From Trypanosoma brucei (Eukaryota), in contig CP000068.1 of assembly GCA_000002445.1 (NCBI GenBank), positions 384,001 to 448,000 on the forward strand: a DNA stretch of 64,000 bases, in the 5' to 3' direction. Below are positions 2,730-21,977 of the stretch, in pieces. Positions within the stretch are counted from its first letter, which is position 1, and every line of letters starts with the position of its first letter. The notes beneath the pieces are model-generated. The model was given only the letters and a program-made list of their open reading frames with translations, searched no databases and was not told the DNA's origin. The translations under genes and the position numbers were made by a program.

Positions 2730-2730
<1 letters not shown>

Positions 2731-2760
<30 letters not shown>

Positions 2761-2776
2761 TATATATATATATATA
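2731..2776. repeat. Microsatellite (CA)13 followed by (TA)8
   Basis: cacacaca...ca then tatatata read directly. Confidence 0.9.
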
Positions 2777-3963
2777 TGTACGTTCTTTTTCTCTCTCTCT
2801 CTTTTCGTCCTCCCGATATGTTTACGTTTTGTCTCTTTATGTTGTGTTTGCCGCACTTTCGCCGTTTCGTAAATCGTTGCAATATATTTGGGGTATTGTT
2901 ACTGTAGTTTTAATGTGATGTAATAAAATATGATATATTTGTATATGCATATATATGTATGTATATATGTGTGTGTGTCGATATTTTGATAATTGTTAGC
3001 TGGCAGCCGTCTAATCGTGGGAATGAGTGAATGAGTGTGTGATGCTATATTGGACATATCTTTGTAATAAAGATGATAATAGCAAAAAAGTACGAGGACG
3101 TTATTGGCGTGTGGTTATTAAAGCGTTTCAGGAACAAGGAGAGAGTACACGCACAAAAAAAAAAAAGACAATAATAATACTTAGTTAGGGCTTTTAACCG
3201 AGTGACGTTGAAGGGTGGAGGGGAATGAATGGGATGATGCGGAGCCGTCACATTTTATGCCGTAATTTGGTCTTGGCAACAACATTGCATCCCAACCTTT
3301 TCTTTTCTTTCCCCTTCATCTTATCTCATCTCATTTTATTTTATTTTGTTGTTTTCCAACCCCTCCCCTTTGGGATTTCATATGTATGAATAAAAATTTT
3401 TGTGCTTGTGTGCGTTTGCATGTGTTTTCGTTGAGGTATTGTATTGTGGTATGTCTTTCCTCGATTTTATGCGCATGAAATTTTTGTTGTTTTTCTTGAT
3501 GTTGATCAATAAATGGTGAGACACGGAGAGATGAAGTGCAGTCGCGAATGACTTCGGCATGTTACGTTCTAGGATTTACTTCTTTTTCTCACTTTCATTT
3601 CTTCACAGGTGACTGCTCTCGGGCATCGTTTTTGTTACTGCCGAACAGCGGAATTTTTTTTTTTCTGATTCGGGTGGTTTCGAGGGTAGGGAAGTGCGTT
3701 GTGCAGGTCGGCGACGGTGTGGCTGAGGCGCTCAAGACAAAACGGAAAGAAAAAATGATAATAAATGAGGCAAAAATACGAAGAAAAAAAAGTAAAACAA
3801 AAGGAAGAAAATATCGGCGGTGCGACACGTAAGTGATGCGTAAGTGAGTACGGTGTCATCTCCGCATCGAAACAACGAAGCGTTTCTTCGAGTCGAACAG
3901 ACAATATAACATTCCCCTTCTAACTAACCTACAACTAACAACTTGTTTATACATTTTTCTGTT

Positions 3964-4027
3964 TAATTTTTTTTATTTTTCGCCCACTTTCATCTCCATT
4001 TGTTTTTTTTTGTTTTTCAATTTCTTC
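3964..4027 (+). promoter_or_regulatory. Polypyrimidine tract plus downstream AG: predicted trans-splice acceptor region for the choline/ethanolamine kinase mRNA
   Basis: About 60 nt nearly pure pyrimidine (tttttatttttcgcccactttcatctccatttgtttttttttgtttttcaatttcttc) followed by AG dinucleotides before ATG 4120. Standard kinetoplastid SL-addition signal. Confidence 0.5.
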
Positions 4028-4119
4028 GGATGCACATTCGCACTACCACTCCAGTTCTCACTAGCTTAACGTCTTGTAACTTTGGAACTGCCTCTTTAGG
4101 GGATACATCGCCGTATTGC

Positions 4120-6006
4120 ATGGCATTACGACCGTTCCCGTTGGGGAACACACCGCTGCATGCCGTCATTCGGCGTTCTGCTCGTGAATTTGAATGTGTT
4201 GAGGCAGTTCCCGCCTCGAATGCTGTTCGCTCACCTTCAACTGCATCATGGGTTTCTGCAGAGTCCCTTGATAGTATCATTTCACTGGCTAACCGCACAT
4301 CTGAAGAAATGGAGGTGGATCAACTCATTTATCGCCTCTGCCGTTCCCTTTACCATGTGGCCAAGAAAAAATCTGCACAGATCCACTGCCACCCCAACCA
4401 CCAGGAGCGGCAACAACAACAGCAGCAAGCCAGCAGCAGCGGCTGGCGTTCCGTCGAATGTGAGGGTCACTTCTCCAACATGCGCGGCCGTGAGGACTGG
4501 TGCCCGTTGTTGCACCTCTTTGATCCAAGGAGTTATTATAAGGTGATGGGGCAACCGAGTCAACACGACGGGTGCAAACTTTGTGGTGATGTGGTGGGTA
4601 CAGAGAGCAGTCCTGAAGGTGTTTCGCAGTGGCTGATGAGCGAATTGAGCGTAACGCGACTTACGGGTGGCAACAGCAACCACGTGTATCGGCTGGGCCA
4701 CGCTTCTTTTCCCAAGAAAGCTGTTCTTCTGCGCGTGTATGGTGATGGTGGTGGGGGTGACGTGATTGACCGGGCCCGGGATATTAAAGTGATGCGACTT
4801 ATGAGCAAGTCAGAGATGGGTCCAGGCTTATTGCATACTTTCCACTGGGGCCGCGTTGAGGAATTTATGGATGGTGTGTTGACGTGCACGACGGAGAAGC
4901 TCCTTACTTCTCCATCCCTACTTGCTGATGTGTATGGAGGTTTAAGTAAGATGCATCAGTTGGATTACACGCCGCTTCTGCCAGAAAACATGAGGACAAA
5001 GGGGATGTCTAACGGGCATAATTCATCTCAGAGTGTGAGCGACACGGTTTCTAAATCAGGTGGTGGACAGGAGGGACCTGACGGCACAGTGGGGGGCGTG
5101 AATGAGCTGGAAAGCACTTGTCATACCTCTTTCGAGCGTGTATGTCTCCGGTTGCTTAGGTTAGTGTCCTTGAATGTGGTGGAGGAACACCGTCACTCGC
5201 TTGAGAGCTGGTTAGCTGGTGAGGTCATGTTCGTGCGAAGGGAACTGCAATATCGTGGGATACCGGTGGTGTTGTCACACAACGATCTAAACCCTGGAAA
5301 CATTCTTCTTTCCGATGGAGCAGGAGAGGCCAGCGGTACCGTCTTCAGTGACGAGGAGCTGAGAGTGGAGAACACACCGTTGTCAAAGCGTTATGTGACC
5401 CGAAAAGGCAAAAACATGAACCTTGTGGAGCGCCGTGGTTTCCTTTTTATTGATTTTGAGTACGCGGATGCCAACTACCGCTGCTTCGACCTTGGGAACA
5501 CGCTTTGCGAGCTGGACTACGACTATACCCGTGGAACAGAAGCGGGAGGCCGGGGATTCATCAAATATCTTTTTGTATTTCCCCCGCCCGCAATGGAGGA
5601 GGCATGGCGTGGGCTCGGGGAGGAGTACCCCCGCATGCCGGAGCTCATTTATGATGCCTGGCGTCGTGGCGTGTGTGATGGATCGTCGGATATCGGCTCT
5701 GTGGCTTTGCTCGCCGTGAGACGTTACTTCGCAGAGCGGGACAATGTGCCACTTGAGACTGTGGAACTCAGTGAAGCTCAGGTTGGGGAGGTGCTGCTTG
5801 GTATGCTCGCCTCGCATCTCTATTGGACAATCTGGTCGATGACAATGGGATCTGCACCGGATAATTGCGTTGAATGCGAGGACTGCGATGATCAGATGTT
5901 TGCTGTAGGCGGAAGTGGGCTTGATTACATGCGATATGGTGAATGTCGTCTGCGGGAGTACATTGCTCTGCGTGGTTGGCTCGCAGAGAAGGGGCTTCTT
6001 TCCTGA
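4120..6006 (+). CDS. Choline/ethanolamine kinase
   Basis: Brenner motif HNDLNPGNILL and choline-kinase motif IDFEYADANYRCFDLGN. Track ORF 4000..6006 starts at TTG. The first ATG (4030) lies inside the polypyrimidine tract; ATG 4120 (MALRPF...) follows the first downstream AGs and is the likelier start. Confidence 0.8.
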   Translation: MALRPFPLGNTPLHAVIRRSAREFECVEAVPASNAVRSPSTASWVSAESLDSIISLANRTSEEMEVDQLIYRLCRSLYHVAKKKSAQIHCHPNHQERQQQQQQASSSGWRSVECEGHFSNMRGREDWCPLLHLFDPRSYYKVMGQPSQHDGCKLCGDVVGTESSPEGVSQWLMSELSVTRLTGGNSNHVYRLGHASFPKKAVLLRVYGDGGGGDVIDRARDIKVMRLMSKSEMGPGLLHTFHWGRVEEFMDGVLTCTTEKLLTSPSLLADVYGGLSKMHQLDYTPLLPENMRTKGMSNGHNSSQSVSDTVSKSGGGQEGPDGTVGGVNELESTCHTSFERVCLRLLRLVSLNVVEEHRHSLESWLAGEVMFVRRELQYRGIPVVLSHNDLNPGNILLSDGAGEASGTVFSDEELRVENTPLSKRYVTRKGKNMNLVERRGFLFIDFEYADANYRCFDLGNTLCELDYDYTRGTEAGGRGFIKYLFVFPPPAMEEAWRGLGEEYPRMPELIYDAWRRGVCDGSSDIGSVALLAVRRYFAERDNVPLETVELSEAQVGEVLLGMLASHLYWTIWSMTMGSAPDNCVECEDCDDQMFAVGGSGLDYMRYGECRLREYIALRGWLAEKGLLS

Positions 6007-6558
6007 GTTTTTTCCCTTTCCCTTTCAAAGAGGAAAAAAAAAGACATAAGGAAAGAAAGCAAAAGGAATAAAAACGAGAACGAGTGAATAAGTATGTGGG
6101 TGCCTAGGGTGAAGTGACACGGTTGCTCCCTTTTTTCCTCATCTTTACCAGTGCTGTTGCCAATAGTGTTCCAGTTTCAATGGTAATTTACGGTGATAGT
6201 TATCATTATTATTTTTACCACTATTGCTGTTATCATTATCGTCGTCAACATAATTATCGTTACTGTTGTGATGTGGTTTGTTAGGGTGGGGGGCGAGGGG
6301 GGTTAAGTCAGCCTCGGCCGTTTTCCTCCTTCCAACGCAAACCGCGACCCAATCGCGTTAAAAACGGCGATGGTTTGCTTTGCTTTGTTCGTAGTTTTCC
6401 ATTGTTCTTGTTTTCCATTACATTCTTTTTTTCCATCTTTTGCCCTCTATCGTATCACTTTAGCTTTTCCTATAGTTTGAACTACTCATGAGTGGGTGCT
6501 CACCGTCTTCCATTAACTCTTATTACCGTGTGCCGCCATTTATTTTGCAGCATCTGGG

Positions 6559-6589
6559 GTTGTTGTTGTTGTTGTTGTTGTTGTTGTTG
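6559..6589. repeat. Microsatellite (GTT)10
   Basis: gttgttgtt... read directly. Confidence 0.9.
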
Positions 6590-7382
6590 CTATTTGGCGC
6601 GCATGTGTGCCCGTGAGAGAAGTGACTTGAAGTAGAATGGAAAGAACCGGAGATAACAAGTGCATACGAGTCTATGAATATGAATATTGGTTAAGTGCCG
6701 TATGTCTGCTTATGCATATATACATTGTTTTTTTGTTTTTTTTTTAGACACTGGCACTTACGGCGGCTCCGTGTGTGTTTGTATGCCACAATTATCTCTG
6801 CTTCATTCCACATCGCAACACACTTCATAAAATTTCTCACCTCTCGGGAATAAAAGGAATGCAAACAAAATCGTAATGAAACAAAACGATTAAAAAGAAG
6901 AAAAAAAGGAGATTGGAAGGCGGGAGGATGAGGGAAAGTTGTAAGGGGGAGGTAAGGAGCGGATGAAGAGTGAAAGGTGCTATTGGAAAGACGCGTTACT
7001 CCCTTTTTTGTGCTTTTGCATTTGTTTTAGCGTACATATATATATATATATATATGAATATACGTGTGTGCAGTGTGTGTATTGTGTGCATGGGAAAGTA
7101 CAAAAAAAGAAAGGAATTCACTGAAAATGAGGGGAAATAAGAGGGAACATGTGCGGGGGAATGATGTAGGAAGAAGTAAAGATAATAATAACAGTAATAA
7201 ACGTCAGTAAAGAATGAAAGGTAATACGAGAAAATAAAAGGAATAGAGAGTCTGGAAGGAGGGGGAGGGGGCGGGAGCCGCTCGTGGGTGGCTTCGGCAG
7301 ATTCACACGAACCAGAGGAGAAGAAACGAGCGAGGATGCGAGGATGCGAGGAATTGACGGATTTCTCTTTCTTTCTTTCTCG

Positions 7383-7465
7383 ACATCTCATCATCATCAT
7401 TATTCCTATTATTCCTATTATTCCTATCGTTACCATTATTATTACTATTATTATTATTGCCACGG
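7383..7465. repeat. Imperfect (ATT/ATC)n trinucleotide-rich low-complexity tract
   Basis: catcatcatcattattcctattattcctattattcc...attattattactattattattattg. Confidence 0.7.
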
Positions 7466-8067
7466 TTACTCTACCCCCTCTTTTATTTGAACACCACAAG
7501 CGAATTATAGATTTATGTTTCTTTCTCCTCCTTCTTTCCTTTGGTTTGGACGCGGCTCACGTGCCTTTTCTGTGCTTTGTCTAAGCTCCGCCTCCTTCCT
7601 TCTCCTACTGCATGCCTCTGCCAGTGGAAGACACGTGCTTCTAATTTTATTATTATTATCATCACATTGCTGTGATTATTATTATCATTATTTCTCCCGT
7701 ACCTTTTCCGTTTTCGTGTTTTACTTCCAAGCATTCGCATTTTTCAATCTCTCTCTATATATGTTGGAGAGGCCTGACCTTCTTTTAAAAGTCCGATTTT
7801 CATATCCCTTTCTTCCTCTTTGCGATAGTTTCACAAACACCTGCTGCTTTTTCCTTTTTTTTCCTTCATTTTCATGTCTCATTCATTTCCTTCCTTTTCT
7901 GCTCTTAGTTGTCGCCTCCTTTTTTAGTACCACTTGCACATTACAGGCATATACATAATTGTATACGGTCACTTATAGTGATGGGAGAAAAGGATTCTGT
8001 GGCGTATGAGCTGCTGCTGAAGGAGTATTGGACCCGCCGTGAGCTCATTCGGCGAGAGGAGGGCCGT

Positions 8068-8497
8068 TTGCATCAACTGCAACGTATTATTCTTCAAGTG
8101 CATAACTTACTGTGGATGTGAGAGCACTGGCGATGCTGTAGTCATGTTCAGAATCTTTTTCCTCCTCTTCCTCACTCTCTTTCAGTACACTGCAGCCATA
8201 CAGCCCGAAAGACTTGCAGAGAGCATCAGTAAATAATATATGTAATATGTTTAATGTTTGTATGTGTGTATGCTTGTGAAGGGAGATGTGATATGATCGA
8301 TGGGAATGTTTGGTTTACATAACAGCAGTCGTTGAACAGAGTTGTGTACGGAATTATTGAAAGGAAAGTAAGAAGAAACAATAGTGAGTGTCATCACCAC
8401 CGCAAAGGTGCCAATTGTTTCCTCCTCCCTTTCAGTACCTTTTTGTATTTTATAACTTGGGGTGGTGTATTACTCACCATTGGAGCAGTTACGTTTA
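8068..8497 (+). repeat. Copy 1 of a 430-bp dispersed direct repeat (non-coding, contains two polyY-AG splice-acceptor-like signals)
   Basis: Compared by eye base by base with 13744-14173: constant offset 5676 bp, one mismatch noted (c at about 8201 versus t at about 13877). Flanks on both sides are unrelated. Confidence 0.9.
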
Positions 8498-8732
8498 TAA
8501 CAGTGCGGGGTTTCACCAGCATTCCCTGTTGAGTACGACGTCACCAGAAGGGATTGCTATCTGATGTTGACGTCACAGCAACTGGGAACTCTTCGCACCT
8601 ACTTGCGACACCGTTATTTTCGATGTGGTAATTTTTTGTTATTACTATCTTACCCTGTTGTTGTCACCCCGTTTCCGTTCTCTATAGTATCAGAGTATAT
8701 TATTCTTCTTTACTTAACGTTCGAGTTTCTGT

Positions 8733-8758
8733 TTGTTTGTTTGTTTGTTTGTTTGTTT
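8733..8758. repeat. Microsatellite (GTTT)6
   Basis: gtttgtttgtttgtttgtttgttt read directly. Confidence 0.9.
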
Positions 8759-8957
8759 TTTGCTTAAAGGAAGCAACAGTGCTGCAACAGGGGCGTGTTT
8801 TACTATTGTTTACGCCCATTTTATGACAGACTTTTGGTTTTTTTTTTCTATACTCTGTGCGTTCGCTGACCATGGGAAATATATTTCTCCTGCAAGCTGG
8901 CACTTTTGTTGGTGCTTAATCCACTTGACTGATTGCAACAAAACTGGTCCAAATACT

Positions 8958-9056
8958 GTTGTTTTCTCTCAGTTTTCGTTGCTTTGCTGCCTTTTTTTCC
9001 CCCTTTACGGCCTGCTTTTATTTTTATTTTTATTTTTTTGACTTCCATTGCTTTTG
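8958..9056 (+). promoter_or_regulatory. Polypyrimidine tract: predicted trans-splice acceptor region for the DEAH helicase mRNA
   Basis: About 100 nt strongly pyrimidine-rich run ending immediately before ATG 9058. Very short 5'UTR implied; the AG used is uncertain. Confidence 0.45.
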
Positions 9057-9057
9057 C

Positions 9058-11265
9058 ATGCTGAGTAAAAGGAACAGGGAGGGGTCGCGAGGAGCGATGG
9101 GGTGCGGAGAGAAAAATCCGTACACAGGCCGAGTGCTGAGTTCCCGTTATCATGCGCTTCGCGGCGTCCGTGAGAAGCTCCCAATTTTTGCCGCAAAACA
9201 AAAGATTCAACGCCTCATCAGTCGATATCAGACGCTGCTGCTGGTGGGTGAGACGGGGAGCGGGAAAACAACACAAGTACCGCAATTTGTGCTGGAGATG
9301 AACCCGGAGCATGCCATAGCGTGTACACAACCCCGGCGAGTTGCGGCAATCAGTGTGAGTGAACGTGTTGCAGAGGAGTTGGACGTAACACTTGGTGAAG
9401 AAGTTGGTTATTGCATTCGTTTTGATGACACGAGCAGTGACCGCACTCGTCTCAAGTATCTCACGGATGGTATGCTCCTTCGCGAGGCCATGGGTGATCC
9501 CATGTTACAGCGCTACAGCGTGATCATCCTTGACGAGGCTCACGAGCGGACGGTGCACACTGACATACTTATCGGAGCGGTAAAAGATCTCCTGCACCGG
9601 CGTCCGGATTTGCGCGTTGTGGTGATGTCTGCCACGCTTGAGGAACGCCGCTTTCAGTCATATTTTCCAGAGGCCCCTCTGGTCCACGTTTCCGGTCGAA
9701 TGTATGATGTTGAGGTGTACAACTCACGGCTGCCGGAAGCAAACTACCTGGAGGCTTCCATACGAACCGCTATGCAGATTCATCTCTATGAAGGGCCGGG
9801 CGACATTCTTATATTTTTAACTGGTGAAGATGAGATTGAACAGGCTGTGGAGCGGTTGCGGTTGGGAATACCCATGGCGGAACACACTAACGCAGACTGT
9901 CATAAGGGGCCTGTAGCGGTACTTCCACTGTATTCCGCGTTGCCACCAAAGGAACAACGTAAGGTGTTCCAAGCGGCGCCAGAGGGTACACGAAAGATAG
10001 TTGTCGCCACGAATGTTGCGGAAACATCGTTAACTATTGATGGTGTTGTATTTGTTATCGATAGCGGGTTCTCCAAACAGAAGGTGTACAACCCAAAGTT
10101 GCGTGTTGAGTCGTTGTTGGTGACACCTATCAGTCAGGCAAGTGCTCGACAGCGGTGTGGTCGTGCGGGGCGGACGCGCCCCGGGAAGTGTTTTCGACTT
10201 TACACCGCAAAGGCGTTTGATACGCTCCTTCAGCAGCAGACATACCCCGAAATATTACGCTGCAACTTAGGCTCAGTAATTCTTCACATGAAAATGATGG
10301 GAATTGAGGACTTGGTGAATTTCGACTTCGTGGAACCCCCAGCCCCGGAGACTCTCATGCGGGCACTGGAACTGCTGAATTATCTTGGTGCCATTAACGA
10401 CGACGGCGACATGACAAAATTCGGCCGGCGTGTTGCGGATTTCCCGCTAGAACCTGAAATGGCCGCGATGCTTTTGCACAGCCCCGAGTATGGCTGCTCA
10501 GACGATATTGCACGCATTTGCGCTATGATGTCTGTTCAAAGTCCATTCGTTACACCGCGGAATGATCAGCGCGGATGCGCCATGCGTTGCAGAGATCAGT
10601 TCTACCACCCAACTGGTGACCACCTGGCGCTGTTGAACGTCTTCAACGCCTTCTACGAGGGAAGTAATCAAAGTGGGTCGTGGGCTTCTGAGAATTATCT
10701 AAATCCGCGTGTCATGAAGCAGTCGGTGAGCATTTACCGCCAGCTAATTGGTATAATGCGCAGGTTGAATTTGAGCATTTGCAGTACATACTCTGCAGCA
10801 CAGTGGGGAGGCGCTGGGGATGGAGAATCGGACGAATACGCAAACGAGGTACGTCGAGCCGTGCTTCGTGGTTACTTCACGAAGGTGGCACTCTCACTTC
10901 CCACAAAGAACCAATTTCTCACGCTAAAGGATAACGTGAAGTGTCTCTTGTTCCCCTCTACCTTCCTTAACCGCCGCCCAAAGTTTGTTGTCTTCAACGA
11001 GCTTGTGCTTACAACAAACACATACATCCGGACTGTAACGTCGGTGTCAGATGAATGGCTACTGGAGGTGAATCCATTATATTTTGACCCAAGTGAATTT
11101 GAAGGTGTGAGCAGACAAGTGTTTGAGGAGTTGCACCGCCGGAATAACCGCAATAACGCGGCCGAGAGGGACCAAAATAAAGACTGCCTTACCGGGCACA
11201 AGCGACGACGTGGAGGAGACGCCCCAGACAACGGTGATGATGATGATGATGATGATTCGTCTTAG
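9058..11265 (+). CDS. DEAH-box ATP-dependent RNA helicase, PRP43/DHX15-like
   Basis: Motifs GETGSGKTTQ (Walker A), DEAHER, SAT, TNVAETSLTIDGV, QRCGRAGRTRPGKCFRLY, followed by helicase-associated and OB-fold regions. N-terminus NPYTGR... resembles DHX15. The track start 8959 is TTG inside the polypyrimidine tract; ATG 9058 verified. Poly-Asp C-terminal tail. Confidence 0.9.
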   Translation: MLSKRNREGSRGAMGCGEKNPYTGRVLSSRYHALRGVREKLPIFAAKQKIQRLISRYQTLLLVGETGSGKTTQVPQFVLEMNPEHAIACTQPRRVAAISVSERVAEELDVTLGEEVGYCIRFDDTSSDRTRLKYLTDGMLLREAMGDPMLQRYSVIILDEAHERTVHTDILIGAVKDLLHRRPDLRVVVMSATLEERRFQSYFPEAPLVHVSGRMYDVEVYNSRLPEANYLEASIRTAMQIHLYEGPGDILIFLTGEDEIEQAVERLRLGIPMAEHTNADCHKGPVAVLPLYSALPPKEQRKVFQAAPEGTRKIVVATNVAETSLTIDGVVFVIDSGFSKQKVYNPKLRVESLLVTPISQASARQRCGRAGRTRPGKCFRLYTAKAFDTLLQQQTYPEILRCNLGSVILHMKMMGIEDLVNFDFVEPPAPETLMRALELLNYLGAINDDGDMTKFGRRVADFPLEPEMAAMLLHSPEYGCSDDIARICAMMSVQSPFVTPRNDQRGCAMRCRDQFYHPTGDHLALLNVFNAFYEGSNQSGSWASENYLNPRVMKQSVSIYRQLIGIMRRLNLSICSTYSAAQWGGAGDGESDEYANEVRRAVLRGYFTKVALSLPTKNQFLTLKDNVKCLLFPSTFLNRRPKFVVFNELVLTTNTYIRTVTSVSDEWLLEVNPLYFDPSEFEGVSRQVFEELHRRNNRNNAAERDQNKDCLTGHKRRRGGDAPDNGDDDDDDDSS

Positions 11266-11801
11266 GTGATGTCGTTGTTTGTCGGTAATGACAGCGCATC
11301 CCAACTCTGATGAGCGGTCATGCCTCTGTGTGTTGGCAGTAGCTGAGGTAATGGAGGTGCGTCTAAGAGCTATGAAACGAATAAATGTGTCGTAATAAGA
11401 TTCCTGTTCTGAAACCTTAATGGGCTGCATGTATACATAAATCTATTTATGTGTGTGTGCCTGTCAAATCTTTGTTTTCAGAATCACGGAGGTGTGTTTG
11501 GGGCAACCCCTAACTTATTGCCGATTTACCTCTGTTAAGAGAGGTGAAGCAGTTACTGGACATTTCAGTGAATCAATTCATTTCCCATCAACTCGTTGTT
11601 AACTTGTCACCGATTTTTTTCTTGCTCACACTTCAAAAAAAAAATGCTCAACTGGACGGCAACGTGTAAAATTAACAAACGGACGTCAACAATCGACAAG
11701 GAAAGAATAAGATCATCAAGGTTAGCCAACTGAGCGGACCACACAAGCCAAGGACTCAAGTAACACACCTTCTTACATTGTTTTCAAAGACACGTGAGGT
11801 C

Positions 11802-12488
11802 ATGTTCTCTATGTCGCCATGCGTGCTTACAGCCCTCCTTGCAGCAGCCGTCCTTGCGGTTTTGCCGCTTTCTAGCTTCGCTTCCCCTGAGTTGACTGAA
11901 GCCGACTTCAAGCGCATGAAGATCAAGGAACTCCGCAACTTTCTGGAGGATCGCGGCCTCACGTGCCCAGGCTGCCAAGAAAAAGCTGATTTTGTGCGCG
12001 TCGCCTTCACTAACCGTGCTAAGAAGCCTCTCAGCGAGGAGGGAAAGCGCGAGATTCCCAAGGCTCCCCTTTGGGAGGTATGGAGGGACAACGCCAAGTT
12101 AGTGTGCGAGGAGGCGGCAAAGAAGCGAGGGCTCGATGTTACGGCCAAACCCCAGTCTGACATTTGCAGCGCGGTTGCACTTGTGGTGGAGAACTTCTTC
12201 ATGCAACACGGCAAGCGCGTCGCCAACAAACTGCGCAAGAACCACGAGGCACTTCTCAAGACTTCCTACAAGAACGTGTATTATGATGCTGGTCACGTAC
12301 TCCTGAAGCGTCTAACGGAGTACTGCCTTGTGTCAGAGGAGAATCAGAACAAATGCAGCTCCATCGGTTCCCTTACTACTATGCTCGAGAGTGGTAAGAT
12401 GGTAGATTTTGCGAAATGGATGACAAATGTGGGTATTGAGAACACGAACCCAATGTACGAGGTGCTAGACGGCCGTGGCGATCTTTGA
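11802..12488 (+). CDS. Secreted protein with a MANF/ARMET-like SAP-CxxC motif
   Basis: Signal-peptide-like N-terminus (MFSMSPCVLTALLAAAVLAVLPLSSFA). KIKELRNFLEDRGLTCPGCQEKADFVRV closely parallels the MANF C-terminal SAP-like domain ([31 protein letters not shown]). The track start 11778 is TTG; ATG 11802 verified. Confidence 0.6.
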   Translation: MFSMSPCVLTALLAAAVLAVLPLSSFASPELTEADFKRMKIKELRNFLEDRGLTCPGCQEKADFVRVAFTNRAKKPLSEEGKREIPKAPLWEVWRDNAKLVCEEAAKKRGLDVTAKPQSDICSAVALVVENFFMQHGKRVANKLRKNHEALLKTSYKNVYYDAGHVLLKRLTEYCLVSEENQNKCSSIGSLTTMLESGKMVDFAKWMTNVGIENTNPMYEVLDGRGDL

Positions 12489-13743
12489 GCGAGTGAATGG
12501 ATGTGATGATGAATGTGTTCGCTTGTTTGAACCATATTCTGTCCTTGCTCGTGCCCGTGTGAGGTAAATGTGGGCGAAAGGAGGAGGAGGAGTGCATAGG
12601 AATAGTGGAAGAAAAGAAAAGTAGATTTGCCATTAAATACACATACCCCTTGGAGTGCGTTTAAGCATTACTTCCTTTCTATTCTCATTATTCCTTTTGA
12701 CTCTTCTCCCTTTACTCGTTTCCTTTCTCTTTATTGTCTATGACTGTGGGTGTGTTGCTTCATGTTAGTTAACTGGTTAATGGAGAAATGGGGAAAGAGA
12801 AAAAAATATAATGAAATTTGAAAGAAGAAGGTTAAGGCCAGTGTGGATCAGAAAAAGGAGAGAGGGAATACAACTCGAACCAAGTGTTAGTGGAGGAGGG
12901 GAGTGGGAGGAAACTGAGAAAGGGGGAGGGGGGAAGAAACGGATCTTTTTTACTTTTTAAATTCTCTTTTTCCGTCAAAGGGGAGGGAATCGAAGTGGGG
13001 GAGGGGATGTGAAACGTGTTGTACCACTAGCGTGAGCTATTGATGAAAAGGAGCTGCCCTTCCTTATCTTTTTTTCTCCTCCATGAATGACGGTACGCTT
13101 TGAGGTTCTGAACTCAGCGCAACTGGGGTGTGTGCATCAGACCCCAGTGGTTATTTTTCCATTTGAAAGGAATTTTGTAATTGAGGTGGCGGTCACTTGT
13201 TTAACGTTTTATGTTGTCGCCCTCCTGTTTTTCCTCTCTTAAACGTCCCTTTACCTCTGGTGGTGTTACACCCTCTCAAATCCGGTTCCTTGCAACTCTT
13301 CCTTATCCCAAACTTGTTTCCTTTCTTTACGCTGCTGGAATGGTTGTGTGAATCCCTTCCAGTGGCATATGGAGGGGAAAAAGCTCGGTGTGGGAAGTGA
13401 CAGCACAACGCGCACGTTGTTGCTTGTGTATTTCTTTTTGTGCAGTACCTTTAACCGACTCTCTTTTTTTACTTTTTTTACTTTTCCTTTCTTTCTCCCT
13501 TCCTTTCCCAGTTTCCAAGAGTAATACGAATTAAAGCTCCATATAGAAGACAGGAAATGTAATATTTGCCACCCGCGACAACCTGCAGCAAAGCAGTACA
13601 TTAATCGGTGAGTTTACTACAGCGTATTGTCCTAACATATTTAGTACACGTGTGGAACAGTGCAATTAATTTGTTTTCCCAAATGCTTGCCTGCTCGTGT
13701 AAGGACATTTCTCCCTCGTTGGAATAAAGCGCTGCAGCCGTGA

Positions 13744-14173
13744 TTGCATCAACTGCAACGTATTATTCTTCAAGTGCATAACTTACTGTGGATGTGAGAG
13801 CACTGGCGATGCTGTAGTCATGTTCAGAATCTTTTTCCTCCTCTTCCTCACTCTCTTTCAGTACACTGCAGCCATATAGCCCGAAAGACTTGCAGAGAGC
13901 ATCAGTAAATAATATATGTAATATGTTTAATGTTTGTATGTGTGTATGCTTGTGAAGGGAGATGTGATATGATCGATGGGAATGTTTGGTTTACATAACA
14001 GCAGTCGTTGAACAGAGTTGTGTACGGAATTATTGAAAGGAAAGTAAGAAGAAACAATAGTGAGTGTCATCACCACCGCAAAGGTGCCAATTGTTTCCTC
14101 CTCCCTTTCAGTACCTTTTTGTATTTTATAACTTGGGGTGGTGTATTACTCACCATTGGAGCAGTTACGTTTA
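13744..14173 (+). repeat. Copy 2 of the 430-bp dispersed direct repeat
   Basis: See copy 1; near-identical (roughly 99 percent or more), same orientation. Confidence 0.9.
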
Positions 14174-14396
14174 CCTGAACGTAATTCGCTTTTCTCTTCC
14201 TCATTTTTGTGCTTCGTCCACCGATTTCCTTCTGATTTGGCTTTTCCCTTCGGTGTAGATGATATATATATAAATAAAACACAGTTCTCTTCTTTTGTAG
14301 ACGCTCTTTGTTGCAGTGCTGCTGTTTCTGAATTACGTTTACCGAGTTGAAACGTGGCAACTGTTAACCTTTGGTCGTGTGTCCATTTTCTTTGTA

Positions 14397-14861
14397 ATGG
14401 AAAACAAAATGTCGGCTGAGCCCCGTGTTGTGAGTAGCACAAACGTTTCACCCGACGAAGAGGAGGAGGAGGAACTTGGTCTGCCGTTGGTGCCGCTTCC
14501 TCATCAGCGTAGCCCCTTGGGGACATCATCAAAGTGTGTACAAGGCAATCATGGTGGTGATGTCGCTGCTGGTGGGAGTGATGATGATGAGGATGACCTT
14601 ATTAAATATGTTTCCAATAGTTCTTCAAAACCACTGACGTCGCGAGTAAATATGGTTTACTCCTCCGCTTCCCAGAAGCGGCCTCGCAATGACAGCGAGT
14701 TGGAGCCAGGGGCAATGGCTGCTGACATGGCAACGGAACACGCAACGCTACCAGATGACACTGATCACCCTCAGGACATGGCGGAATATGAGCGATGGAA
14801 GGACCGTGATGCCGCTAGGGCGAAAGACGAACTTATGTCCCTTTTGTCAGGGAGTGCATAG
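14397..14861 (+). CDS. Hypothetical acidic, low-complexity protein (probably disordered)
   Basis: Track ORF starts at GTG 14316; first ATG is 14397 (MENKMSAEP...). Poly-E and poly-D stretches, no recognisable domain. Lies immediately downstream of repeat copy 2. Confidence 0.45.
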   Translation: MENKMSAEPRVVSSTNVSPDEEEEEELGLPLVPLPHQRSPLGTSSKCVQGNHGGDVAAGGSDDDEDDLIKYVSNSSSKPLTSRVNMVYSSASQKRPRNDSELEPGAMAADMATEHATLPDDTDHPQDMAEYERWKDRDAARAKDELMSLLSGSA

Positions 14862-15253
14862 ACGCGAACGAAAAAAAAAGGGGGAAGTGGAGTGTTACGG
14901 AGGGGAGGCTTTTTGCCTTTGGTTAAGGTTTAGAACCTGAAGCCCTTCTACTGAGCTTGTTGATCCTTCTGTACTCGCGCACCCTTTATTGAGAGCTGCC
15001 GCAATTTCGTGTTGGTGCCTGTGCGTCTGCACACTGACTCACTACCCCTTTTGAGGTTGTTCAGTTCATTAGTCTTTTTCACTTTTGTACCGTTTGCCTT
15101 GTGGTTTCCCTCTTCAGCTCGTCAACCCCTCTTCACACAACGTGAGATGCCCTGAAGCATCTTGACAAGGATGTGATGGTTCTTTTTCTTCCCCTTCTGT
15201 TCGTTTCTTTGTAGGCGTGCGAAAGCACAGGCGTGTACACTTCGTGTGGGGTC

Positions 15254-17842
15254 ATGCAGTGGCCGTCATGGGTGCTCAGTGAGGAAAACCGCGCTCTTCA
15301 GCGCAGGGCCCAACGCGCTGCCACTGACTTGAGCGAGAAGATGGACGAAGCTGCAGCGCATCGTGAAGTTGTGGAGCTTATGCTGAGGAATATTGGACAG
15401 CTGCGGCGTGCCGTCGATTCTGCTGCGCTTGCTCTTACAGAGCAGAAAAAGTTGGAAGAAAGCGATGAGGCGGAGCTGCAACAGGTGCGGCAGGATGGTT
15501 CATACTTCCGCACTGAGCTGCAAACACTGCACCGTCGTCAAGACCAACTTCAAGAGTTATTGTTGCGGTCCGAAGCGGCACTTAAGTCAAAAACGTTGGC
15601 ACTTGAGCGGCAACAGCAGGAGTTGGCTTCAGTTCTGCATGAGCAGGAAGAATTATTGCAACAACGAGAAAATGAGGGGATCGATGGGGGGGAATTTCAA
15701 AAGCACCTGAGCGTTTTTGAAGCACAGAACCGTCAGCGCTTCGATCAACTGCAAGGAGCCTTGCAGAGGGAACAGACCACCTTCAATGCCGCTAAGGATC
15801 AACTAGACCGTGAGCGAGAGGAGTACAAGCGGGTCCAGCGTGAGCTTGCGGCCATGAGGGCAAGCATTGAGCGAGAGAAACGAGAGAAACTGAAGTCCTC
15901 CCTTACTATCCAACAGGTGCACGAACTAATGAAATCAACAGAGGCGCGGACGCTTGAGAACGCGGCGTTGTACGCCACTGGCAAGGAGTCGATGGAGTCG
16001 CAGCGAACTATGTTAATGAAGCTTCAATGTGAGGCTGAGGAGCTTGAGAGACAGCGCAAGTTGGTCGACAAACATCTGCAGGACCGTCTCCGTGAGCAGG
16101 ACAGATTAACTGCGTTGTTGAGCAGTACCACAGCTGAAGTGGAGAATCAACAGAAGGAGATGGCAAGCATGCGGCGGCAGCTATCCGCACAAAGGGATGT
16201 TAATCGAGAGCTAGCTTTGTCGCGCGATAACGCTATAATGTTGCGTGATGAGCGTTGGAATAGACAGGCGCAACTCATTCACCACGCCCAAGAGCTAAAG
16301 GTCGTGCGTGACGAAATACAAAGGCAACAAAAGGAAGGTACAAACGTTCCGGGGCCGCGCTATCTTTTACAGACCCTTGACGCTTTGAAAGCTAATGAGC
16401 GGCAGCTTGACGGCCAGATGGAGCGCCTCCGTGCGGCAAACGTTGCGTGTGTCTCGCAGCTGATGCAACACGCTAGGCAGGGCGAATCGCTAGATGGACG
16501 AATGGCAGCGGTCCGGAAGTCTCTGGCAGCTGCGGATCGTGACCACGCCCAACAGTGTCAGCTGCGTGAGCAATGCGAGCGTCAGGCGGAGGCACTAACA
16601 TCGAAGGTGGAGGAACAACAGCAGCGTCTCCAGGCGGCCCGTTTGGAAGCAGCTGCTCGCAGTGGGGCGCAATACGCCATGCTTTTGGGCAACGCGCAGG
16701 ACTTACGGGTGCGGCTGCAAGGAGAGCAACGTCGTGGCTATGAACTGCGGCGTCTCGTCGCACCCCTGCAATACACCTTGAATAGCCGCCGTCGTGCATT
16801 GTTGGAGGATGAAGAGAAGTTGGCGCATCTGGTTGGTGAGGCAGGACTGCGTGGAGCAGAGCTACAACGACTGGAGTCGGAGAAGGCGCAGTCGCAGCAG
16901 GAAAAACAGACAGCGTTACTGCTTGTGGAAGAGGCGAACTTACAGCTACAGACCCTCAATCGCTTGGCAGAATCTCGCATGGTAGCAAGTTGCGAGGCTG
17001 CCGGCATGCAGGAAATAATGCGTGGTCAAGCTTTGGCAGCCGAGGAGGCACATCAGGACGATGCAAAGAATGCGTTGCTGCTTCTGCACCTGGAGCAACG
17101 TGCTGTTTCAGATAAGCATGCGGAGCTGCGTCGTCGACAGCAGCAACTTCAAGCACTGAAAGATCGTTACCAAGACATTATGCGGTCGATGGCACGAAAC
17201 GCCGCGCTAGCAGCAAATGTAAACGTCCGTGCAGGGCAGAATTCCGATCCTTCGTCGGTTACATCGTCGTCACCATGGGAATATATGGTTGAGAAGGACG
17301 AATCTTTGTTGGCGGACACTAGCGTTGATCCAGAGGTCCTGCACGCGAAGTTCATTCTCCACGCGTCAACGACACGTGAGAAACTGTGGGAGAAGGGAAA
17401 TCAACTTGATGCTCGTGTAATGTTTCTTGAGCATGAGGTATCTGCCTTGAGGAAGATGCTTCACGCTATGCGCTCCACCGGGTCCCATCGAGAACGAACT
17501 ATAGAGGCAACGTCATCCAATTTGCCGAAGCGTTCAGAGCGGCAGAATCCAAATGACACGCAGCTTCTTACCTCCCTGCGCGAAGGTTTGACAAGGGGTC
17601 AACAAGCGGTGGAGGTTGAGCTGCAAGGTGTTAAGGAGTCACTGCAGCTTTTACAGAAGCGGATGCAAGAGGTGGGTGAAAAACATAGAAGTGAGATGAG
17701 ACGACTAAGTGAACTGCGGAGTCTGAAAGTAGGCAAAGAGGCACAGCTGCGGCGACTGAGGGATAAACTGCAACGGCAGCAAACCCAAAAAGTGCAGCAA
17801 CGTCTTAAACCTCTCTCTGCTTTGTGTGGCCGTTCAGCGTAG
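15254..17842 (+). CDS. Large coiled-coil protein (Q/E/R/L-rich), hypothetical
   Basis: About 860 aa of continuous heptad-like Q/E/R/L-rich sequence with coding-like codon usage. The track start 15233 is GTG; ATG 15254 verified. No enzymatic motif. Confidence 0.6.
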   Translation: MQWPSWVLSEENRALQRRAQRAATDLSEKMDEAAAHREVVELMLRNIGQLRRAVDSAALALTEQKKLEESDEAELQQVRQDGSYFRTELQTLHRRQDQLQELLLRSEAALKSKTLALERQQQELASVLHEQEELLQQRENEGIDGGEFQKHLSVFEAQNRQRFDQLQGALQREQTTFNAAKDQLDREREEYKRVQRELAAMRASIEREKREKLKSSLTIQQVHELMKSTEARTLENAALYATGKESMESQRTMLMKLQCEAEELERQRKLVDKHLQDRLREQDRLTALLSSTTAEVENQQKEMASMRRQLSAQRDVNRELALSRDNAIMLRDERWNRQAQLIHHAQELKVVRDEIQRQQKEGTNVPGPRYLLQTLDALKANERQLDGQMERLRAANVACVSQLMQHARQGESLDGRMAAVRKSLAAADRDHAQQCQLREQCERQAEALTSKVEEQQQRLQAARLEAAARSGAQYAMLLGNAQDLRVRLQGEQRRGYELRRLVAPLQYTLNSRRRALLEDEEKLAHLVGEAGLRGAELQRLESEKAQSQQEKQTALLLVEEANLQLQTLNRLAESRMVASCEAAGMQEIMRGQALAAEEAHQDDAKNALLLLHLEQRAVSDKHAELRRRQQQLQALKDRYQDIMRSMARNAALAANVNVRAGQNSDPSSVTSSSPWEYMVEKDESLLADTSVDPEVLHAKFILHASTTREKLWEKGNQLDARVMFLEHEVSALRKMLHAMRSTGSHRERTIEATSSNLPKRSERQNPNDTQLLTSLREGLTRGQQAVEVELQGVKESLQLLQKRMQEVGEKHRSEMRRLSELRSLKVGKEAQLRRLRDKLQRQQTQKVQQRLKPLSALCGRSA

Positions 17843-18294
17843 CGGGGTGCCAGACGCTTAGGACTCCCGAGCTGTTTGGTTTCATTGATTTTTTTTTTTA
17901 GCGTTCATTCAGTTCAGTTGTGTTTTATTTGGATTTGAGCAAGCGCCGTGCGTTCTTATGAATTGCGCCCTTGGGTTAATAGCTCCCGTCAGCTTCGCCA
18001 GGCAGCATTTTGCCTTACCGATAATCAATTTCATGCACGGACGTTCTCTTATTTTCCCCTATTGTCTTGATTTCATTTGTTTTAACAGCAATAGACACAC
18101 ATAACACTACCGTCTAGAAGTATCAACAGCAGGAGCATTGCACTTTGAAGCGCTGACATATCAGGGAAGAGAAAAATCCACCTACTTTTCCAGCGATCTA
18201 ACCCCATTAAAAACAACAACGAAAGTCACCACTGCGTCGAACCGCGCTACTCCACTCGAACGCAGACACTCACACATTAACACAAAACAGCGAA

Positions 18295-18597
18295 ATGTTT
18301 TGCTCCACTTGCGTCTCGCTGGTCGGTGTGATTTCAGCCTTGATGCTCTTAAGTTATTTGGGTTTCGTGATCATTTACGTTCCCGTCTACCGCTATTTAG
18401 CCATCACTGTGCTGTTGCTGTTGCTTTCGTACAGGCTTTCAGTTTGGCGATTCCTGCCAACAGAACGGGCGCACGTGCGGCGACTGGCAGAAAAAATAGT
18501 CGAGAGGCGACGCGCCTACGCTTTGCCAACCTCTGAGGAGCTGAGGAGTGATGTCGGTGCTAACGCTTTATATGTCCCCGCTGCCCCTTATTTATAG
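18295..18597 (+). CDS. Small two-pass membrane protein, hypothetical
   Basis: ATG 18295 verified; 100 aa. Two hydrophobic helices (LVGVISALMLLSYLGFVIIYV and LAITVLLLLLSY) followed by a basic tail. Could be spurious. Confidence 0.3.
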   Translation: MFCSTCVSLVGVISALMLLSYLGFVIIYVPVYRYLAITVLLLLLSYRLSVWRFLPTERAHVRRLAEKIVERRRAYALPTSEELRSDVGANALYVPAAPYL

Positions 18598-19407
18598 TTT
18601 TGATTTGACTTTTATTAATTAAATTAAGAAATCTTATTCTCTTTAATTATTATTTTGTTTGTTTGTTTGTTCTTTTGTTTTGTTTTGTTACCTCCGTTTG
18701 TTTCGCATCTTCCAGGGGCCACGCTATGCACAAAGAGTGGAGCTGGCGTGATTAGTGGATCATGGCGAAGAGGAGTGTTTCATTTTGTATTATTATTATT
18801 TCTTCCGGTGCTTTTCTTCCTTGGCATTACTTTTGTAGTGCTCTACGTCAGTACGTTTTTTTTGGAAGTGTGCTCGTACTCCGCCGCACTACTCCTGTTA
18901 CTACCTCTACTACTGATAAACTTCATTAACAATTGATTACGAAAAATCATGATCATAATAATGGTATCGAACAGTTAAGAAGATGACACACGCACACATG
19001 TGTGTTTGCACTCGTTTTCTATTTCATTTCTTCTCTCGTACTTTTTCTACTTCTCGTTGCCACCGTTGCTATTCGTAAATTGGGGTGCACTTAATCTCAA
19101 ACAAGCGGTAATAGTAGCGGAAGAAAGTGAGTGTTCGTCTGCTGGAGGAAAAGAAACAGCACCAGCGGGGAGGAGGAAATACCTGACGGGCTCTTGTAAG
19201 AAAGAAAGGGGGTAAACTATAAATATATACATTTGTCGGAGCATTCATTCCTCACACGTACAAAGTGGAACAAAGGTTCAACTGAAACAGTTTGAAGTGG
19301 AAAAGGAAAGAAAAGAGGGAGTGGGAAAAGGACAAAACAAAAAAGAAAGGGGAGGAAGGAAAGCCAGACTGGACCAAGCAACAAAGAGGAATCTATAGGG
19401 AAAGGGA

Positions 19408-20337: not shown

Positions 20338-20982
20338 GTGACTTGTCATCTCTTCGTCTTGTGCGTACGTGTGCATACGCACTGGGGTGTTTGATGCAGC
20401 AGTGGTGAATTTTAACAACTCGGTTACACGGGTTGGTACATTTTTGTATAAGGGAGGGAAGGGTGATCAGAGAAGACGGGATGCCTTTTCCTTTCGGCTC
20501 TGTTATGGTGGCTGCTGCATGCATCAACTTTGATGGGTAAAAGGTGTGGGTGGAGAATCTAAACCAGGTCGTAAATATATGGTCGCATAAACACAAATGT
20601 ATGAATGACGCTGCTGCTGCTAACCCTATCGTTTTTTTTGTGCATTTCTTTTATATAATTATTCCTTCTTTTCGTGTATGTTTCGTTTGCCATTTGTTGC
20701 TGTAGGATCGGTGTGGACGTTTTTTTTTTTTTTAATTATCATAAACAAAGTTGACAAAGATAAAAGTAGTGAATTTTCAAAGTTTTCTCTATTTCATTAA
20801 GTGCATATACAAGAGAGACTCGTTCATAACGAAGGTTGTATCACCCTGTCATCAGGAGAAGAACTGAGGCGTGAAGATATCCCAGGGAAGTTATACCATC
20901 CGATAGCAGTACTGCAACCCTTCAAGTAACTCTACAATTCTGTTTATTCCTCTACAGCTATTTGCGTCTACCCATTACTGAA

Positions 20983-21918: not shown

Positions 21919-21949
21919 GAACAGGTGAAGAAGAGGGTAGGGGGGGGGA

Positions 21950-21950
<1 letters not shown>

Positions 21951-21977
<27 letters not shown>
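21951..21977. repeat. Microsatellite (TA)13
   Basis: Read directly in 3' spacer after the KAR gene. Confidence 0.9.

What the first reader, a model, noticed from the sequence alone, without database searches (positions are those of the whole stretch)
8068..14173. 430-bp near-identical direct repeat pair bracketing a two-gene block (DEAH helicase + MANF-like gene)
Two copies (8068-8497 and 13744-14173) are identical except for about one base over 430 bp and in the same orientation. They sit 5676 bp apart, and their flanks are unrelated on both sides. The element is non-coding in appearance and itself carries two polyY-AG splice-acceptor-like signals and an AT-rich segment, so it looks like a duplicated UTR/intergenic module rather than a retroposon. 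There is no poly(A) tail, no target-site duplication, and no ingi/RIME-like ends. Such high identity implies very recent duplication or ongoing gene conversion. The arrangement is a ready substrate for homologous recombination that would excise or amplify the helicase-MANF block as a 5.7-kb unit. Alternatively it is a recurring cis-regulatory 5'UTR/3'UTR module shared by the helicase gene and the acidic-protein gene at 14397.
Basis: seen in the sequence. Interest (0 to 1): 0.6.

Follow-up and report, generated by a model that had tools for sequence, protein, structure and literature searches.

The report
Relic of an ancient gene-flanking duplication
The two near-identical 430-bp copies are real, and they are what remains in Trypanosoma brucei of a much larger duplication (choline kinase gene, a 46-codon micro-gene and its downstream flank) that brackets the same helicase and MANF genes in other trypanosomes and is kept uniform by gene conversion, which is an instructive but ordinary kind of genome feature.

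Summary
Window 8068-8497 and 13744-14173 are 429/430 identical direct repeats, 5676 bp apart, and are the only long repeat in the 64 kb. Both copies, with the same boundaries, are present in an independent T. b. equiperdum chromosome assembly.

The element is not purely non-coding. In copy A the first 54 nt are the last 17 codons plus stop of a conserved 46-codon gene (7981-8121; published transcript Tb5.NT.34). The remaining 376 nt are the start of that mRNA's 3'UTR. Copy B is a start-less fragment of the same gene, preceded by an in-frame TGA.

Orthologous loci explain the origin.
- T. vivax has CK-sORF-helicase-MANF-CK-sORF, with a 2821-bp flanking repeat at 99.93% identity.
- T. cruzi and T. 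theileri keep 2.25-2.37-kb CK repeats at 98.5-99% identity, with the sORF only after the second CK.
- T. congolense has two 99%-identical CK proteins.

CK paralogues are 99.1-99.9% identical within a species and 62-77% identical between species, which is concerted evolution.

T. brucei deleted CK2 and the 5' part of the second sORF, leaving 430 bp. This is a new example of a known kind of feature and is of moderate-to-low interest. Recombinational excision or amplification of the block remains untested.

The parts
8068..8497 (+). Repeat copy A (430 nt). It corresponds to nt 160-589 of the Tb5.NT.34 mRNA: 54 nt of CDS followed by the first 376 nt of the 3'UTR.
   Evidence: transcript mapping
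13744..14173 (+). Repeat copy B (430 nt), 429/430 identical to copy A. It lies between MANF and the acidic-protein gene.
7981..8121 (+). Intact 46-codon micro-protein gene (sORF; Tb5.NT.34_1; DPX39_050017600 in T. b. equiperdum). Its last 54 nt lie inside copy A.
13744..13797 (+). Truncated sORF fragment in copy B (codons 30-46 plus stop). An in-frame TGA sits at 13741-13743 and there is no start codon, so this is a pseudogene fragment.
7909..8938 (+). Inferred extent of the 1030-nt trans-spliced transcript Tb5.NT.34. It starts immediately after the AG at 7907-7908 and contains all of copy A.
   Evidence: The four ORFs listed for the transcript map collinearly to 7981, 8144, 8564 and 8823. The 3' end is inferred from the stated length.
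4030..6006 (+). Choline/ethanolamine kinase gene (single copy here). In other trypanosomes it is the main body of the flanking repeat.
9058..11265 (+). DEAH-box helicase, the first gene of the bracketed block.
11802..12488 (+). MANF/ARMET-like protein, the second gene of the bracketed block.
12489..13743 (+). Interval between MANF and copy B. It occupies the position where CK2 lies in other species and holds no CK remnant.
14397..14861 (+). Acidic 154-aa protein, orthologue of the 125-147-aa gene that follows adh_short in other species.
8155..8185 (+). Polypyrimidine tract plus AG number 1 within the repeat (counterpart in copy B at 13831-13861).
8418..8435 (+). Polypyrimidine tract plus AG number 2 within the repeat (counterpart in copy B at 14094-14111).
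13737..13743 (+). Left junction of copy B: GCCGT (shared with 8063-8067) followed by an extra GA. This may be a microhomology scar of the deletion.
   Evidence: the scar interpretation is inferred

Best explanation
The pair is the remnant of an ancient segmental duplication. It is neither a new 430-bp duplication nor a mobile element. In the ancestor of the genus Trypanosoma, a segment [choline kinase - 46-codon sORF - about 0.4 kb downstream flank] came to lie on both sides of the helicase-MANF block. T. vivax still shows this state. Intrachromosomal gene conversion has kept the two copies nearly identical in every lineage since then. Lineages then lost different parts. The non-salivarian species lost the first sORF. 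T. brucei lost CK2, the CK-sORF spacer and the first 29 codons of the second sORF (and, separately, the neighbouring adh_short gene). That left only the last 17 codons plus 376 nt of flank as copy B. Copy A is the functional original: it is the 3' end of the coding sequence and the proximal 3'UTR of the Tb5.NT.34 micro-protein mRNA. Copy B is a non-coding passenger that is still, or was until very recently, converted against copy A. Shown here: the anatomy, the conservation of the sORF, the larger homologous repeats in other species, and within-species homogenisation of CK. Inferred: the order of events, the deletion mechanism, and that conversion continues on the 430-bp remnant.
For: (1) Anatomy. 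Copy A starts at codon 30 of an intact 46-codon ORF. Copy B has the same 17 codons preceded by TGA.
(2) The ORF is a real gene. Same-length orthologues are present in T. theileri, T. cruzi, T. vivax (two copies) and T. conorhini; the unidentified kinetoplastid also carries a 46-codon homologue, which aligns with an offset. pN is 0.12-0.26 against pS of 0.68-0.76. It lies on published transcript Tb5.NT.34, which is listed as conserved in T. congolense and T. vivax.
(3) T. vivax locus L011 reads CK1-sORF-helicase-MANF-CK2-sORF-adh-acidic. It has a 2821-bp direct repeat at 99.93% identity covering CK, the sORF and 463 nt past the sORF stop. In T. brucei the repeat ends 376 nt past the stop.
(4) T. 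theileri has 2254-bp and T. cruzi 2356-2368-bp CK repeats (98.5-99.0% identity) flanking the same two genes, with the sORF only after CK2.
(5) CK nucleotide identity is 99.1-99.9% between paralogues within a species and 62-77% between species, which is the signature of concerted evolution.
(6) T. congolense IL3000 has two CK proteins that are 621/626 identical, so the loss of CK2 is specific to the T. brucei lineage.
(7) In a non-Trypanosoma kinetoplastid the sORF sits directly upstream of the helicase with no CK nearby (L009). Copy A therefore occupies the ancestral position.
(8) No fixed difference between A and B is shared by the two T. brucei-group assemblies; every difference is a singleton.
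(9) The non-coding part cannot be aligned between species, so sequence-specific selection is an unlikely cause of the identity.
Against: No conversion tract was observed directly in the 430-bp pair. With one difference in 430 nt and only two full-length strains, a recent deletion from a longer converting repeat cannot be told apart from ongoing conversion on the remnant. The shared-ancestry path and the path with an independent 430-bp duplication need the same number of events; the former is preferred because of the coincidence of position and right boundary. The gene order in T. congolense could not be read, since only protein accessions were available and their numbering (CK 90403, CK 90407, MANF 90410) does not obviously fit CK-sORF-H-M-CK. 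Genome-wide copy number of the element could not be checked.
Confidence: 0.85

Rival explanations
1. A recent, T. brucei-specific duplication of a 430-bp piece of the sORF mRNA region, for example by template switching, inserted downstream of MANF and unrelated to the CK-sORF repeats of other species.
For: The copies are 99.8% identical with sharp boundaries and unrelated flanks, and no CK2 remnant lies in 12489-13743. The event count equals that of the relic model.
Against: It requires that sORF sequence landed independently in exactly the interval (after MANF, before the acidic gene) where a second sORF copy sits in T. vivax and the only sORF sits in T. cruzi, T. theileri and T. conorhini. 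It also requires a right boundary at a similar distance past the stop (376 versus 463 nt). T. congolense still has two CK copies.
Confidence: 0.08
2. A shared cis-regulatory RNA module kept identical by purifying selection. In this view the same 376-nt UTR segment serves the sORF mRNA and the MANF or acidic-protein mRNA, for co-regulation or shared processing signals.
For: Copy A lies in the 3'UTR of a mapped mRNA. Both copies carry two polyY-AG signals. Copy B lies where MANF polyadenylation and acidic-gene trans-splicing must occur.
Against: The non-coding part is not alignable even to T. vivax. There is no Rfam match and no unusual folding (z = -0.35). The helicase and the acidic gene each have their own polyY-AG sites outside the repeat. 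Selection would not explain why identity starts exactly at a mid-codon position of a truncated ORF.
Confidence: 0.05
3. A dispersed repeat family or retroposon fragment (RIME/ingi/SIDER-like) that happens to have two copies in this window.
For: Contigs of a short-read assembly break at the element, which any repeat would cause.
Against: There are only two copies in 64 kb, with no poly(A) tail and no target-site duplication. The content is the 3' end of a conserved single-locus gene plus its UTR.
Confidence: 0.01
4. An assembly artefact: a falsely duplicated segment.
For: None found.
Against: Both copies with the same boundaries and different unique flanks occur in an independent chromosome-level assembly. 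All four junction types are supported by independent contigs.
Confidence: 0.01

Closest known systems
Concerted evolution of duplicated genes and their UTRs in T. brucei (Jackson 2007, BMC Evol Biol 7:54, PMC1855330)
   Same: Duplicates in direct orientation, including non-coding flanks, are homogenised by gene conversion. Paralogues group by species rather than by orthology, and repeat boundaries are curtailed at the ends (CK matrix).
   Different: This is not a head-to-tail array of one gene. The repeats bracket two unrelated single-copy genes, and in T. brucei only a 430-bp stub of the second copy remains, so no functional gene is duplicated any longer.
Low-copy intergenic direct and inverted repeats as recombination substrates in Leishmania and T. 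brucei (Ubeda et al. 2014, PLoS Biol 12:e1001868, PMC4028189)
   Same: The element meets that study's criteria (at least 200 bp, at least 85% identity, same chromosome, mostly non-coding). It flanks genes in direct orientation and so could yield a circle or a deletion. The study counted 773 such repeats in T. brucei and detected rearrangement junctions by PCR at four of them.
   Different: No rearrangement product was tested for this pair. The four tested T. brucei loci are on chromosomes 2, 3, 6 and 7, not this locus. That study reports no stable amplification in T. brucei. This pair has a traceable origin as a gene-duplication relic, not a SIDER element.
Differential (reciprocal) loss of duplicated genes between lineages
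   Same: After the duplication of the sORF seen in T. vivax, T. brucei kept the upstream copy. T. cruzi, T. theileri and T. conorhini kept the downstream copy.
   Different: The T. brucei loss is partial and leaves a near-identical fragment. The duplicates are about 6-7 kb apart on one chromosome rather than on paralogous chromosomes.
Trypanosomatid retroposons (ingi/RIME, SIDER)
   Same: They share only the fact of being repeated sequence located in intergenic regions.
   Different: The element has no poly(A) tail, no target-site duplication and no reverse-transcriptase-related sequence. It has two copies only, and its content is a fragment of a host gene.

Membership tests
Segmental duplication under concerted evolution (gene conversion) | Two or more copies in the same orientation, with high identity, sharp boundaries and unrelated flanks | tested here: met
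   429/430 identity. Flank alignments are no better than shuffles, apart from one polyY-tract match.
Segmental duplication under concerted evolution (gene conversion) | A homologous duplication at the orthologous locus in related species, showing that the duplication is old | tested here: met
   T. vivax has a 2821-bp repeat including the sORF and its flank. T. cruzi and T. theileri have 2.25-2.37-kb CK repeats around the same helicase-MANF block. T. congolense has two 99%-identical CK proteins.
Segmental duplication under concerted evolution (gene conversion) | Paralogues within a species are more similar than orthologues between species | tested here: met
   CK is 99.1-99.9% identical within species and 62-77% between species. 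The two T. vivax sORF copies are identical, whereas T. brucei and T. vivax sORFs are about 73% identical at nucleotide level.
Segmental duplication under concerted evolution (gene conversion) | Direct evidence of conversion tracts or shared polymorphism between the two T. brucei copies | tested here: inconclusive
   In the four-way alignment of two strains, all differences are singletons and there is no fixed A-versus-B difference. There are too few sites and strains to decide.
Retroposon or dispersed repeat (ingi/RIME/SIDER) | Poly(A) or A-rich 3' end and target-site duplication | tested here: not met
   The boundary sequences read show neither feature.
Retroposon or dispersed repeat (ingi/RIME/SIDER) | Many copies at unrelated loci | not testable with these tools
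   There are only two copies in the 64-kb window and in the 20-kb orthologous locus. No whole T. brucei genome could be searched.
Recombinogenic intergenic repeat pair (RAG sensu Ubeda et al. 2014) | 200-2500 bp, at least 85% identity, same chromosome, intergenic | tested here: met
   430 bp at 99.8% identity, 5676 bp apart, with 376 of 430 nt non-coding. Criteria are as quoted.
Recombinogenic intergenic repeat pair (RAG sensu Ubeda et al. 2014) | A detectable rearrangement junction (circle or deletion) formed at the repeats | not testable with these tools
   This needs PCR or read-level data.
Structured non-coding RNA or snoRNA cluster repeat | A match to a known RNA family, or a fold more stable than shuffled sequence | tested here: not met
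   No Rfam hit at gathering threshold across the whole window, and only a chance-level hit outside the repeat at E <= 1. No tRNA genes. The 376-nt fold has z = -0.35.

The most novel reading that the evidence does not exclude
The helicase-MANF block may have been kept between homogenised direct repeats across the whole genus because the architecture itself is selected. T. vivax, T. congolense, T. cruzi, T. theileri and, in minimal 430-bp form, T. brucei all show it. Possible benefits are reversible excision or amplification of the block, control of CK dosage, or placing the same 376-nt UTR module on two mRNAs (the micro-protein mRNA and the MANF or acidic-protein mRNA) for co-regulation. In that case the T. 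brucei stub would be a retained functional minimum and not decaying debris.
Probability: 0.07. Interest if true: 0.55.

Novelty: new member of a known kind. Interest (0 to 1): 0.3.

Why it matters
The finding turns an unexplained 430-bp repeat into a dated evolutionary story. One locus shows every stage of decay of a duplication: the full repeat in T. vivax, the gene-only repeat in T. cruzi and T. theileri, a stub in T. brucei, and probably none in T. conorhini. Homogenisation persists throughout, and a micro-protein gene was lost reciprocally in different lineages.

There are three practical consequences. Copy B should be annotated as a pseudogene fragment of Tb5.NT.34_1. Short-read mapping and assembly at this locus will be ambiguous. 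The pair is a defined, testable substrate for studying the minimal homology needed for gene conversion or pop-out in T. brucei.

The analysis also strengthens the case that the 46-aa protein is a genuine, kinetoplastid-wide gene of unknown function.

Tried and rejected
- **Structured RNA or snoRNA.** Rfam at gathering threshold on the whole window, and at E <= 1 on 7900-9100, gave nothing relevant. ARAGORN found nothing. The 376-nt fold has z = -0.35. Rejected.
- **Decayed homology outside the repeat.** Local alignment of the flanks against shuffles was negative. The only excess was a polyY-tract match.
- **CK2 remnant in 12489-13743.** tblastn and blastn with word size 7 were both negative.
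- **Exact-protein look-up of the 735-aa helicase.** Not on record.
- **Look-up of P0066, a 72%-identical sORF homologue.** Not on record.
- **sORF homologue in the Leishmania orientalis locus.** Not detected by HMM.
- **Pfam and PDB sequence searches with the sORF.** Only sub-threshold noise.
- **Cross-species alignment of the non-coding 376 nt.** Only the coding part aligns.
- **T. brucei repeat list in the Ubeda et al. supplements.** Not provided; only four tested loci on other chromosomes are given.
- **T. congolense genomic DNA.** Not retrievable. Only protein accessions were available, so its gene order remains uncertain.
- **Dispersed retroposon and assembly-artefact readings.** Both rejected on anatomy and on the independent assemblies.
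Full report
**Observation**

The repeat finder, MAFFT and a self-BLAST all recover one long repeat in the 64-kb window. Positions 8068-8497 and 13744-14173 are in the same orientation, 5676 bp apart, and 429/430 identical (8201 C versus 13877 T). With a 2-nt gap the match extends 5 nt to the left (GCCGT). The flanks are unrelated. Scores for the 100- and 200-nt flanks equal those of shuffles, and the only excess, at 400 nt, is a polypyrimidine-tract alignment. All large ORFs of the window lie on the + strand, and the encoded proteins are 99-100% identical to Trypanosoma brucei-group proteins.

**The repeat is not an artefact**

The T. brucei equiperdum chromosome CM010676.1 (L002) is collinear with window 1-18133 at 98.6% identity. 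It carries both copies with identical boundaries. In the short-read assembly GCA_001457755.2, one contig equals window 8466-13784 and another equals 14142-21973. Both therefore end 32-41 nt inside a repeat copy. Assemblers behave this way at a genuine repeat.

**What the element contains**

A 46-codon ORF (7981-8121, MGEKDSVAYELLLKEYWTRRELIRREEGRLHQLQRIILQVHNLLWM) begins immediately upstream of copy A. The repeat starts at its codon 30. Copy B carries the same 17 codons plus stop, but they are preceded by an in-frame TGA and have no start codon.

The ORF is a real gene.
- It is annotated in T. b. equiperdum as DPX39_050017600.
- Same-length orthologues are present in T. theileri, T. cruzi, T. 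vivax and T. conorhini, and an unidentified kinetoplastid from a Logan assembly has a 46-codon homologue that aligns with an offset.
- Non-synonymous differences (pN 0.12-0.26) are far below synonymous ones (pS 0.68-0.76).
- A library-wide phmmer search found 7 proteins at E <= 0.001; six are short proteins of 46-144 aa, including the query itself, and the seventh (P0070, 1113 aa, a partial match) was not examined.
- Twelve internal residues, plus the start methionine, are invariant across nine sequences.
- It has no Pfam or PDB match.

The ORF is already in the literature. Ericson et al. 2014 (PMC3942054) list Tb5.NT.34_1 [73-210] with exactly this sequence, on a 1030-nt RNA-seq transcript, and mark it as conserved in T. 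congolense and T. vivax. The four ORFs they list for that transcript map collinearly to window 7981, 8144, 8564 and 8823. The transcript therefore starts at 7909, directly after the AG at 7907-7908, and ends near 8938. Copy A is thus nt 160-589 of that mRNA, made up of 54 nt of coding sequence and the first 376 nt of the 3'UTR.

The non-coding part shows no RNA family match, no tRNA and no unusual fold.

**Comparative evidence**

I fetched orthologous loci through the MANF and choline kinase (CK) proteins.

| Species (locus) | Gene order | Flanking repeat |
|---|---|---|
| T. vivax (L011) | FAZ1 - 302 aa - CK1 - sORF - helicase - MANF - CK2 - sORF - adh_short - acidic protein | 9877-12697 vs 17066-19886: 2821 bp, 2 mismatches. 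Covers CK, the sORF and 463 nt past its stop |
| T. theileri | CK1 - helicase - MANF - CK2 - sORF - adh - acidic | 2254 bp, 99.0%, covering CK only |
| T. cruzi (two strains) | Same order as T. theileri | 2356-2368 bp, 98.5-99.0%, covering CK only |
| T. grayi | No sORF between CK1 and helicase | Contig ends after MANF |
| T. conorhini | One CK; sORF only after MANF | None found. Assembly collapse cannot be excluded |
| Unidentified non-Trypanosoma kinetoplastid (L009) | sORF - helicase - MANF - adh - acidic, no CK nearby | Not searched |

T. congolense IL3000 has two CK proteins that are 621/626 identical. Their accession numbers lie four apart and three before MANF. Its gene order could not be read.

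Across species, CK paralogues are 99.1-99.9% identical within a species and 62-77% identical between species.

**Interpretation**

The ancestral Trypanosoma locus carried [CK - sORF - flank] on both sides of helicase-MANF, and gene conversion has homogenised the two copies ever since. This matches the concerted evolution Jackson (2007, PMC1855330) described for T. brucei duplicates and their UTRs.

T. brucei has one CK (4030-6006) followed by the intact sORF and its flank (copy A). After MANF it has only the 3' stub of the second unit (copy B). There is no CK remnant in 12489-13743, and the adh_short orthologue is missing from this interval. The right boundary of the repeat lies at a similar distance past the sORF stop in T. 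brucei (376 nt) and T. vivax (463 nt). That is consistent with the original duplication boundary. The left boundary of copy B is most simply a deletion junction, and the GCCGT(GA) motif there may be a microhomology scar (inferred).

Because T. congolense keeps two CKs, the deletion happened on the T. brucei branch. The two T. brucei-group assemblies share no fixed A-versus-B difference, and all four or five differences are singletons. The copies were therefore identical when these strains split. The data cannot separate continuing conversion on the 430-bp remnant from a fairly recent deletion out of a longer converting repeat.

**Rival explanations**

- **Independent recent 430-bp duplication.** This needs as many events as the relic model. 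It also requires sORF sequence to land by chance in exactly the interval where other trypanosomes carry an sORF copy, with a similar right boundary. I give it about 0.08.
- **Selected regulatory module.** This is unlikely to explain the identity. The non-coding part is not alignable between species, and both downstream genes have their own polyY-AG sites outside the repeat. A secondary role of copy B in MANF or acidic-gene mRNA processing is untested.
- **Retroposon and assembly artefact.** Both are rejected.

**Relation to the recombination idea**

The pair meets the criteria Ubeda et al. (2014, PMC4028189) used for recombinogenic repeats. They counted 773 such direct or inverted repeats in T. 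brucei. They detected rearrangement junctions by PCR at four loci on other chromosomes, and noted that no amplification has been described in T. brucei, except for changes in ploidy. It is untested for this pair.

**Verdict**

The repeat is real and well explained, and it is a new example of a known phenomenon: a relic of a segmental duplication with concerted evolution and differential loss. Interest is about 0.3. The most novel reading still open is that the flanking-repeat architecture is itself maintained by selection across the genus.

Noticed in passing
window 7981-8121 (also L011 12097-12237 and 19286-19426; L006 14571-14708; L004 17364-17501; L012 16534-16671; L009 1069-1209): A kinetoplastid-wide 46-aa micro-protein family with invariant Y16 W17 R20 E21 E27 G28 L30 L33 Q34 H41 N42 W45. 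It has no Pfam or PDB relative and is unannotated in most genomes. It is listed only as Tb5.NT.34_1 in Ericson et al. 2014. Its function is unknown.
   Followed up: partly
L012 (T. conorhini MKKU01000076.1) 10001-17822: This locus has a single CK, no flanking repeat, and the sORF only between MANF and adh_short. Either both duplicates have been fully resolved to single copies, or the short-read assembly collapsed the repeat.
   Followed up: partly
T. congolense IL3000 proteins CCC90403.1, CCC90407.1 and CCC90410.1: Two CK proteins are 621/626 identical. The accession order (CK, three genes, CK, two genes, MANF) does not obviously match the CK-sORF-helicase-MANF-CK order of T. vivax. The cause could be an extra unit, fragmented gene models or scaffolding.
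   Followed up: no
window 12489-14396 compared with L011 19887-21243: The adh_short gene that lies between the second repeat copy and the acidic-protein gene in T. vivax, T. cruzi, T. theileri, T. conorhini, Leishmania and L009 is absent from this interval in T. brucei. The window's adh_short at 20962-21918 is only about 27% identical, so it is a different paralogue.
   Followed up: partly
L005 14123-15970 (T. cruzi JABDHM010000054.1): An ORF with RVT_1 and RNase_H domains (a retroelement) is inserted between CK2 and the sORF in T. cruzi.
   Followed up: no
window 8144-8236 and 13820-13879: The 30-aa ORF Tb5.NT.34_2 (MFRIFFLLFLTLFQYTAAIQPERLAESISK) reads through the polypyrimidine tract of copy A. 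The single A/B mismatch (13877 T) turns its codon 20 into TAG in copy B. The ORF is probably spurious.
   Followed up: no
window 18295-18597: The 100-aa ORF Tb5.NT.36_1 of Ericson et al. (listed there as conserved in T. congolense, T. vivax, T. cruzi and Leishmania) maps here, between the CCDC39-like gene and the EXOSC1-like gene.
   Followed up: no
window 6006-7981: The 2-kb spacer between the CK stop and the sORF is unusually long (about 170 bp in T. vivax and 640 bp in T. theileri). It is rich in low-complexity tracts: (TA)n/(TG)n at 7032-7091, a TTATTCCTA-type tandem at about 7400-7430, and ATT runs at 7640-7690. Only low-complexity ORFs are visible in it.
   Followed up: no
window 8720-8760: A (TTTG)n microsatellite lies within the distal 3'UTR of the Tb5.NT.34 transcript, just outside copy A.
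   Followed up: no
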